This document shows positions 283-3,848 of a stretch of DNA of 64,000 bases, one piece after another. The DNA is from Escherichia coli. GTDB taxonomy: Bacteria > Pseudomonadota > Gammaproteobacteria > Enterobacterales > Enterobacteriaceae. The notes below the pieces were generated by a model. That model worked only from the letters and a program-made list of their open reading frames with translations. It was not told the DNA's origin and made no database searches. Each line of letters opens with the position of its first letter. The first letter of the stretch is position 1. The stretch lies in the NCBI RefSeq assembly GCF_003334335.1, contig NZ_QOWQ01000008.1; one strand, 5' to 3'. Position numbers and translations under genes: made by a program.

Positions 283-2409
<2,127 letters not shown>

Positions 2410-2493
2410 TTATCTTTTAGGCGTTCAATTTAAGTAGCCCAAAGCGGGCTGCTTACTGGAAGCGCCCGCCTGGTGACTAAAACTCCGAAGGGA

Positions 2494-2979
<486 letters not shown>

Positions 2980-3060
2980 TTAATTCAGGATTGTCCAAAA
3001 CTCTACGAGTTTAGTTTGACATTTAAGTTAAAACGTTTGGCCTTACTTAACGGAGAACCA

Positions 3061-3534
<474 letters not shown>

Positions 3535-3560
3535 TCAAGAAATATACAACGATCCCGCCA

Positions 3561-3848
3561 TCACCAGGCCATCTGGCTGGGGTGCTTAACCGTAAGTCTG
3601 ACGAAATCAGTATAGTCAATGAGAATGATGTCGTTCGAAATTTGACCAGTCAAACCGCGGGCAATAAGGTCTTCGTTCAGGGCATAGACCTTAATGGGGG
3701 CATTACGCAGACTTTCAAGGTAGCGGTTACCGTCAACTGCGGCAGTTACGCCATCTTGCAATAATAGCAGTTCGTCTCCTTCACTGAGCAGACGCAGCAG
3801 CGCAGCAAAATCCGTCAGCCAGGGTGAGCGATGTAATGTGTGCAGCAT
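3561..3848 (-). CDS. tusB: Sulfurtransferase complex subunit TusB
   Basis: 95-aa [37 protein letters not shown]; third gene of a tusD-tusC-tusB arrangement. Confidence 0.9.

What the first reader, a model, noticed from the sequence alone, without database searches (positions are those of the whole stretch)
2425..2496. rpsG ends at TAA giving 156-aa S7; the K-12-type 23-residue extension is present but untranslated
The S7 frame stops at plus-strand tta 2494-2496. Reading on in frame gives SLRSFSHQAGASSKQPALGYLN then a stop at 2425-2427, which is the C-terminal extension I recall for K-12 S7 (179 aa), where the first stop is a sense codon. This chromosome therefore has the short allele found in B-type and most other strains.
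Basis: partly seen in the sequence, partly recalled or inferred. Interest (0 to 1): 0.3.

Follow-up and report, generated by a model that had tools for sequence, protein, structure and literature searches.

The report
Ordinary short S7 ribosomal-protein allele
The ribosomal protein S7 gene here ends at the normal stop codon that about 93% of E. coli genomes carry; the longer S7 of K-12 laboratory strains comes from a one-base mutation of that stop, which has long been documented, so the finding is correct but ordinary.

Summary
rpsG (window 2494-2964, minus strand) encodes a 156-aa S7 that ends in TAA at 2496-2494. Reading on in frame gives SLRSFSHQAGASSKQPALGYLN and then TGA at 2427-2425.

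- **Comparison with references.** K-12 MG1655 (NC_000913.3) differs from the window at one base in the 3218 nt from rpsL to fusA. That base is window 2495, which makes TAA into TTA (Leu157) and gives the annotated 179-aa S7. E. coli B REL606 has the same 156-aa gene as the window.
- **Frequency.** Of 5426 complete E. coli genomes, 5063 carry the TAA 61-mer and 348 the TTA 61-mer. All 60 TTA genomes listed look like K-12 laboratory derivatives by name or size.
- **Which state is ancestral.** TAA is ancestral. The early K-12 stock WG1 and the related strain NCM3722 have it, a non-Escherichia enterobacterial outgroup has it, and 120 of 120 sampled bacterial species stop straight after the C-terminal Trp.
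- **The post-stop stretch.** It evolves as non-coding spacer. It has mostly non-synonymous changes and indels, while all 16 changes in rpsG are synonymous.

This is published (Browning et al. 2023). Evolved MG1655 lines repeatedly re-truncate the gene. One refinement: the long allele marks the EMG2/MG1655 branch of K-12, not K-12 as a whole. The finding is already known and of low interest.

The parts
2494..2964 (-). rpsG coding sequence with its stop: 30S ribosomal protein S7 (uS7), 156 aa, the short ancestral allele
   Evidence: ORF, translation. The protein is identical to REL606 S7, annotated WP_001138043.1; the same accession is annotated in NCM3722 and WG1. Pfam PF00177 is on record for the identical product.
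2494..2496 (-). Stop codon TAA at codon 157. The middle base, window 2495, is the only difference from K-12 MG1655, which has TTA = Leu157.
   Evidence: The TAA 61-mer is exact in 5063 of 5426 genomes and the TTA 61-mer in 348.
2428..2493 (-). 22 in-frame sense codons after the stop (SLRSFSHQAGASSKQPALGYLN). Untranslated spacer here; residues 158-179 of S7 in K-12 MG1655.
   Evidence: Non-coding substitution pattern against the outgroup: 10 nt differences spread 4/4/2 over the codon positions, 6 non-synonymous against 1 synonymous codon, followed by indels.
2425..2427 (-). TGA, the stop codon used by the K-12 long allele. It has no termination role here.
   Evidence: MG1655 rpsG is annotated to end at this position.
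2398..2493 (-). 96-nt rpsG-fusA intercistronic spacer. It contains a predicted hairpin at about 2442-2471 and the fusA Shine-Dalgarno GAGG at 2404-2407.
   Evidence: Sequence; folds. The 163-nt query that contains the spacer was 100% identical in 36 of 40 evenly sampled E. coli genomes. The spacer has the same length in 10 of 10 loci that encode the identical S7.
283..2397 (-). fusA (elongation factor G), the next cistron of the str operon. Its ATG is at 2397-2395.
   Evidence: annotation of the collinear MG1655 region.

Best explanation
This is the ancestral, wild-type 3' end of rpsG. Translation of S7 stops at UAA straight after the conserved C-terminal ...AHYRW, giving a 156-aa protein with a calculated mass of 17,473 Da without Met1. 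The 96 nt that follow are the non-coding spacer before fusA. The '23-residue extension' is not a silenced coding segment. It is spacer that happens to be stop-free in the S7 frame for 22 codons. It became coding only in one laboratory branch of K-12 (EMG2/MG1655/W3110/C600/DH5alpha and others), through a single A-to-T change in the mRNA sense (UAA to UUA, Leu157). That change moves termination to a UGA 69 nt downstream and gives a 179-aa protein (19,888 Da without Met1). Shown here: the sequence, the single-base difference, the allele frequencies, the direction of the change and the non-coding evolution of the spacer. Taken from the literature, not tested here: the K-12 extension is said to cause increased degradation of S7, and S7 becomes SsrA-tagged, linked to the weak UGA termination of the K-12 RF2 Thr246 variant.
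For: - **Sequence and frame:**
- **MG1655 differs from the window at one base** (window 2495) in the 3218 nt from rpsL to fusA, and its rpsG is annotated as 540 nt.
- **REL606 rpsG** is 471 nt and its protein is identical to the window's.
- **Allele counts:** TAA 5063 and TTA 348 of 5426 genomes. Every alignment covers at least 80% of the 61-mer and so spans the central codon. All 60 listed TTA genomes look like K-12 laboratory strains by name or size.
- **Independent lineage marker:** a synonymous pabA SNP specific to MG1655 is exact in 343 genomes, nearly the same number.
- **Direction of change:** WG1 and NCM3722 (K-12 lineage) carry TAA and differ from MG1655 at only 2 of 64,000 positions. 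Three outgroup loci with an identical S7 protein have TAA. 120 of 120 bacterial species with KAFAHYRW have a stop as the next codon.
- **No coding constraint after the stop:** rpsG has 16 differences from the outgroup, all synonymous and at third positions. The first 20 post-stop codons have 10 differences spread 4/4/2 over the codon positions, 6 non-synonymous against 1 synonymous, and then indels change the frame.
- **Literature:** Browning et al. 2023 (PMC9997739) report the rpsG extension and prfB Thr246 in EMG2, MG1655 and W3110. PMC5691611 reports that evolved MG1655 lines acquire rpsG L157* (TTA to TGA) or a 1-bp deletion, read there as correcting a defective extension found only in K-12-derived strains.
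Against: Nothing contradicts it. Four limits apply. Only 60 of the 348 TTA genomes were listed by name. 15 genomes match neither 61-mer exactly, and their codon 157 was not resolved; none is the exact TGA variant. No expression or mass data exist for this particular strain. The species of the outgroup assemblies was not determined.
Confidence: 0.97

Rival explanations
1. The post-stop frame is translated at a low but functional level by read-through of UAA, so wild strains make a minor long S7 isoform, and the open frame is kept for that purpose.
For: The frame is open for 22 codons and invariant across E. coli. Read-through peptides have been seen by mass spectrometry at the K-12 rpsG TGA (PMC11126739), so termination in this region is not absolute.
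Against: An open frame of 22 codons arises in 44% of shuffles. Against the outgroup, the segment shows no third-position bias (4/4/2), 6 non-synonymous against 1 synonymous codon, and indels that change the frame and remove the TGA. Its invariance within E. coli matches the flanking genes: 0-1 SNP in 3.2 kb. From general knowledge, UAA followed by U is an efficient termination context. All 120 sampled species stop straight after Trp.
Confidence: 0.01
2. The window comes from a K-12 strain that lacks the extension, either a WG1/NCM3722-type stock or a laboratory revertant, not from an unrelated strain with the short allele.
For: The window is collinear with MG1655 3471118-3535117 with only 12 SNPs in 64 kb. 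WG1 and NCM3722 are identical to the window over the first 25 kb.
Against: Over the full 64 kb the window differs from WG1 and NCM3722 at 10 positions where those two agree with MG1655. Many non-K-12 phylogroup-A-like strains, including E. coli C derivatives and pig and cattle isolates, are also identical over the first 25 kb. Revertants seen in evolved lines use TGA or a 1-bp deletion, not TAA.
Confidence: 0.02
3. The A at window 2495 (mRNA sense) is a sequencing or assembly error in a genome that really has TTA.
For: None specific.
Against: The same base is present in 5063 independent complete genomes. The window also lacks the linked pabA marker of the K-12 laboratory lineage.
Confidence: 0.003

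Closest known systems
E. coli B / wild-type rpsG allele (S7 'B form', 156 aa; RefSeq WP_001138043.1)
   Same: The protein is identical to that of REL606, and WG1 and NCM3722 are annotated with the same accession. It has the same TAA stop, the same 96-nt spacer, and identical DNA across rpsG and the spacer.
   Different: Nothing in rpsG or the spacer. REL606 differs only in rpsL codon 43 (AAA to ACA).
E. coli K-12 MG1655 rpsG (b3341, NP_417800.1; S7 'K form', 179 aa)
   Same: Residues 1-156 are identical. The downstream DNA that encodes residues 158-179 and the TGA is identical.
   Different: Codon 157 is TTA (Leu) in K-12 and TAA (stop) here, one base at window 2495. K-12 terminates at UGA 27 nt before the fusA ATG instead of UAA 96 nt before it. 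The literature links the K-12 form to SsrA tagging and increased degradation of S7 (PMC9997739; PMC5691611).
rpsG truncations arising in laboratory-evolved MG1655 (L157* TTA to TGA; 1-bp deletion at nt 460 of 540)
   Same: They restore a short S7 that ends at or near residue 156 (PMC5691611).
   Different: They are secondary mutations on the K-12 allele and use TGA or a frameshift. The window has the original TAA. No complete genome in the collection carries the exact TGA variant.

Membership tests
Ribosomal protein uS7 (Pfam PF00177 Ribosomal_S7) | The protein matches the S7 family profile and sits in the str operon between rpsL and fusA | tested here: met
   PF00177 is on record for the identical 156-aa product. 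The neighbours are S12 (PF00164) upstream and EF-G downstream. The region is collinear with the annotated MG1655 rpsL-rpsG-fusA-tufA.
Short (ancestral, B-type) rpsG allele | A stop codon straight after Trp156, giving a 156-aa product | tested here: met
   TAA at 2496-2494. Identical to REL606 rpsG.
Short (ancestral, B-type) rpsG allele | It is the majority and ancestral state in E. coli and its relatives | tested here: met
   5063 of 5426 genomes. Also present in WG1 and NCM3722, in outgroup loci L133, L137 and L138, and as a stop after Trp in 120 of 120 other bacterial species.
Long (K-12 EMG2/MG1655-type) rpsG allele | TTA (Leu) at codon 157, so that the ORF runs to the TGA and gives 179 aa | tested here: not met
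   The window has TAA. The only difference from MG1655 in 3218 nt is this base.
Programmed stop-codon read-through gene | The post-stop frame is under coding constraint: synonymous bias and a frame kept intact across relatives | tested here: not met
   Differences fall 4/4/2 over the codon positions, with 6 non-synonymous against 1 synonymous codon. Indels shift the frame in the outgroup.

The most novel reading that the evidence does not exclude
The position of the S7 stop codon may matter for fusA expression. The 96-nt spacer folds into a conserved hairpin. With flanking sequence, ViennaRNA predicts a 9-bp long-range helix between the last codons of rpsG (AGGCGUUCG) and the spacer segment UGAACGCCU, which contains the K-12 UGA. 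It also predicts that the fusA Shine-Dalgarno is paired. If these structures mediate the reported rpsG-to-fusA translational coupling, then ribosomes in K-12 that read 69 nt further, through the hairpin and into that helix, would change the S7:EF-G coupling. The K-12 mutation would then be a regulatory lesion as well as a protein-tail lesion.
Probability: 0.08. Interest if true: 0.3.

Novelty: already known. Interest (0 to 1): 0.05.

Why it matters
It matters little as a discovery. The difference between the K and B forms of S7 is a classic strain polymorphism (my recollection, not checked here: it was used in the 1960s-70s to map ribosomal protein genes). Its molecular basis and its restriction to one K-12 branch are published. 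There are three practical points:

- Annotation pipelines and mass-spectrometry databases built on the K-12 reference will assign the wrong S7 length and mass to nearly all other E. coli (calculated 17,473 against 19,888 Da).
- 351 PDB entries carry the 178/179-aa K-12 sequence for S7.
- The allele is a handy one-base marker for the EMG2/MG1655 laboratory lineage.

Tried and rejected
- **Rfam.** A scan of window 2200-3700 at E-value up to 1 found no family for the spacer or the rpsL-rpsG leader.
- **Terminator and promoter scan.** Nothing in the spacer. The only terminator-like hit lies inside rpsG and is within the number expected from shuffles. The str promoter-like site at 3538-3510 is outside the finding.
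- **Genome-contig scan.** The pattern for KAFAHYRW was too general. The 120 returned loci span all Bacteria and include no close enteric outgroup. I reused them for stop-codon statistics.
- **Outgroups.** They came instead from the look-up of encoding contigs with the exact S7 protein. The outgroup species could not be named with the tools; it may be Salmonella.
- **Papers.** Schaub & Hayes 2011 (PMC3031961) is not held, so its content is cited only through Browning et al. 2023. The main text of the LS5218 genome paper has no rpsG passage.
- **TGA variant.** A 61-mer with TGA at codon 157 matched no genome exactly.
- **Source strain.** No genome in the collection is identical over window 29000-53999. 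The closest are E. coli C-like strains and assorted environmental and animal isolates.
- **A WG1/NCM3722 origin** for the window was considered and rejected.

Full report
**Observation.** On the minus strand the S7 reading frame runs from ATG at 2964 to TGG (Trp156) at 2499-2497, followed by TAA at 2496-2494. Reading on in frame gives 22 sense codons, SLRSFSHQAGASSKQPALGYLN (2493-2428), and then TGA at 2427-2425. fusA starts at ATG 2397-2395, so the rpsG-fusA spacer is 96 nt (2398-2493). Every coordinate in the finding is correct.

- In NC_000913.3 (K-12 MG1655), rpsG is annotated as 540 nt and 179 aa.
- In E. coli B REL606 it is 471 nt and 156 aa.
- Over the 3218 nt from upstream of rpsL to the end of fusA, the window differs from MG1655 at one base, window 2495. 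In the mRNA sense this is TAA here and TTA (Leu157) in K-12.
- Over the same stretch the window differs from REL606 at one base in rpsL codon 43, AAA to ACA.
- The K-12 protein is the window's protein plus L-SLRSFSHQAGASSKQPALGYLN.

**How common each allele is.** I searched a 61-mer centred on the codon against 5426 complete E. coli genomes. Every genome gave one alignment covering at least 80% of the query, so every alignment spans the central codon.
- The TAA version is exact in 5063 genomes (93.3%).
- The TTA version is exact in 348 genomes (6.4%).
- 15 genomes have some other mismatch.
- A TGA version is exact in none.
- All 60 TTA genomes listed look like K-12 laboratory strains by name or size: MG1655 derivatives, C600, J53, DH5alpha, DH1, RR1, HMS174, HST04 and ER strains.
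- As an independent lineage marker I used a synonymous pabA SNP at window 19263 (R150 CGC here, CGA in MG1655). The MG1655 allele is exact in 343 genomes. This is almost the same number, as expected if both alleles are private to the same laboratory clade.

**Direction of the change.** TAA is ancestral, on three grounds.
1. Within K-12 itself, WG1 (annotated as from Palo Alto) and NCM3722 carry the 471-nt gene. Across the whole 64 kb they differ from MG1655 at only two positions, the rpsG codon and the pabA SNP. Browning, Hobman and Busby 2023 (PMC9997739) report exactly this. EMG2, MG1655 and W3110 share the rpsG extension and prfB Thr246, while WG1, NCM3722 and LS5218 form a distinct lineage.
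2. Three loci from a non-Escherichia enterobacterial outgroup encode an identical S7 protein. Their rpsG differs at 15-16 synonymous sites and their tusC product is 118 aa. They also have TAA.
3. In 120 of 120 bacterial species drawn from a GTDB-wide scan for KAFAHYRW, the next codon is a stop: 72 TAA, 40 TAG and 8 TGA.

**Is the 'extension' a silenced coding segment or just spacer?** It is spacer.
- An open stretch of 22 codons is expected by chance. It occurs in 44% of shuffles of the same 66 nt, and 43% of the 120 unrelated loci have at least 22 open codons after the stop.
- Between the window and the outgroup, rpsG has 16 differences, all at third positions and all synonymous.
- The first 20 post-stop codons have 10 differences spread 4/4/2 over the codon positions, with 6 non-synonymous and 1 synonymous codon. 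Indels then shift the frame and remove the TGA.
- In the outgroup the 96-nt spacer has no in-frame stop at all.

So nothing selects for the peptide. In K-12 a random piece of spacer became a protein tail.

**Consequences (from the literature, not tested here).**
- Browning et al. summarise earlier work, citing Schaub & Hayes 2011 and others. RF2 Thr246 terminates poorly at UGA, and S7 becomes tagged with the SsrA peptide by trans-translation.
- PMC5691611 found that MG1655 evolved under stress repeatedly acquires rpsG L157* (TTA to TGA) or a 1-bp deletion at nt 460. The authors read this as correcting a defective 23-aa extension found only in K-12-derived strains that increases degradation of the protein.
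- Read-through peptides at the K-12 rpsG TGA have also been detected (PMC11126739).
- The calculated average masses without Met1 are 17,473.0 Da for the short form and 19,887.7 Da for the K-12 form.

**Origin of the window.** It is collinear with MG1655 3471118-3535117 with 12 SNPs. It is not a K-12 stock. WG1 and NCM3722 agree with MG1655, not with the window, at 10 of those 12 positions. The first 25 kb are identical to many strains, including E. coli C derivatives and livestock isolates. No genome in the collection is identical over 29000-53999. The window therefore comes from a close relative of K-12, probably phylogroup A (an inference from the low SNP count; phylogroup was not determined here), that carries the normal allele.

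**Other checks.**
- No Rfam family matches the region, and there is no terminator-like site in the spacer.
- The spacer folds into a hairpin (about 2442-2471). The fold energy has a z-score of -2.2 against shuffles.
- The outgroup keeps this hairpin through four one-sided, pair-preserving changes, with no broken pairs and no compensatory pairs. With two lineages this is weak evidence.
- With flanking sequence, ViennaRNA predicts a 9-bp helix between the rpsG 3' end and UGAACGCCU in the spacer. It also predicts pairing of the fusA Shine-Dalgarno with fusA codons 2-3.
- A review states that fusA translation is coupled to rpsG (PMC10931766).
- Whether these structures underlie that coupling, and whether the K-12 mutation disturbs it, is untested speculation.

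**Verdict.** This is a well-documented single-nucleotide polymorphism, so it is already known and of low interest.

Noticed in passing
window 19263 (pabA codon 150): A synonymous SNP, CGC here and in WG1 and NCM3722, CGA in MG1655. Apart from the rpsG codon it is the only difference between MG1655 and WG1/NCM3722 in this 64 kb. The MG1655 allele is exact in 343 of 5426 genomes, nearly the same count as the rpsG TTA allele, so it is a second marker of the EMG2/MG1655 laboratory lineage.
   Followed up: partly
window 2442-2471 and 2398-2519 (rpsG 3' end, spacer, fusA start), minus strand: A predicted spacer hairpin is kept in an enterobacterial outgroup through four one-sided, pair-preserving changes. 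ViennaRNA also predicts a 9-bp long-range helix, AGGCGUUCG (about 2519-2511) with UGAACGCCU (2427-2419, which includes the K-12 UGA), and pairing of the fusA Shine-Dalgarno (2404-2408) with fusA codons 2-3. These could relate to the reported rpsG-fusA translational coupling. They are predictions only, with no covariation.
   Followed up: partly
L133, L137, L138 positions 1972-2067 (outgroup rpsG-fusA spacer): In the outgroup the 96-nt spacer has no in-frame stop, so the frame after the S7 TAA runs directly into fusA in frame. A stop-loss mutation there would fuse S7 to EF-G instead of adding 23 residues.
   Followed up: no
window 3308 (rpsL codon 43): The window has AAA (Lys), as MG1655 does. 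REL606 has ACA (Thr), its only difference from the window in the 3218 nt from rpsL to fusA. From memory, this may be the streptomycin-resistance substitution of REL606.
   Followed up: no
PDB sequence search (not a window coordinate): 351 PDB entries deposit S7 with the K-12 178/179-aa sequence, and only a handful with 156 aa. Whether the ribosomes used were K-12, or the reference sequence was simply assigned, was not checked.
   Followed up: no
E. coli genome collection (match to window 2398-2560): One of the 5426 rpsG matches lies on a record labelled as a plasmid instead of a chromosome. This is probably a replicon-labelling oddity.
   Followed up: no
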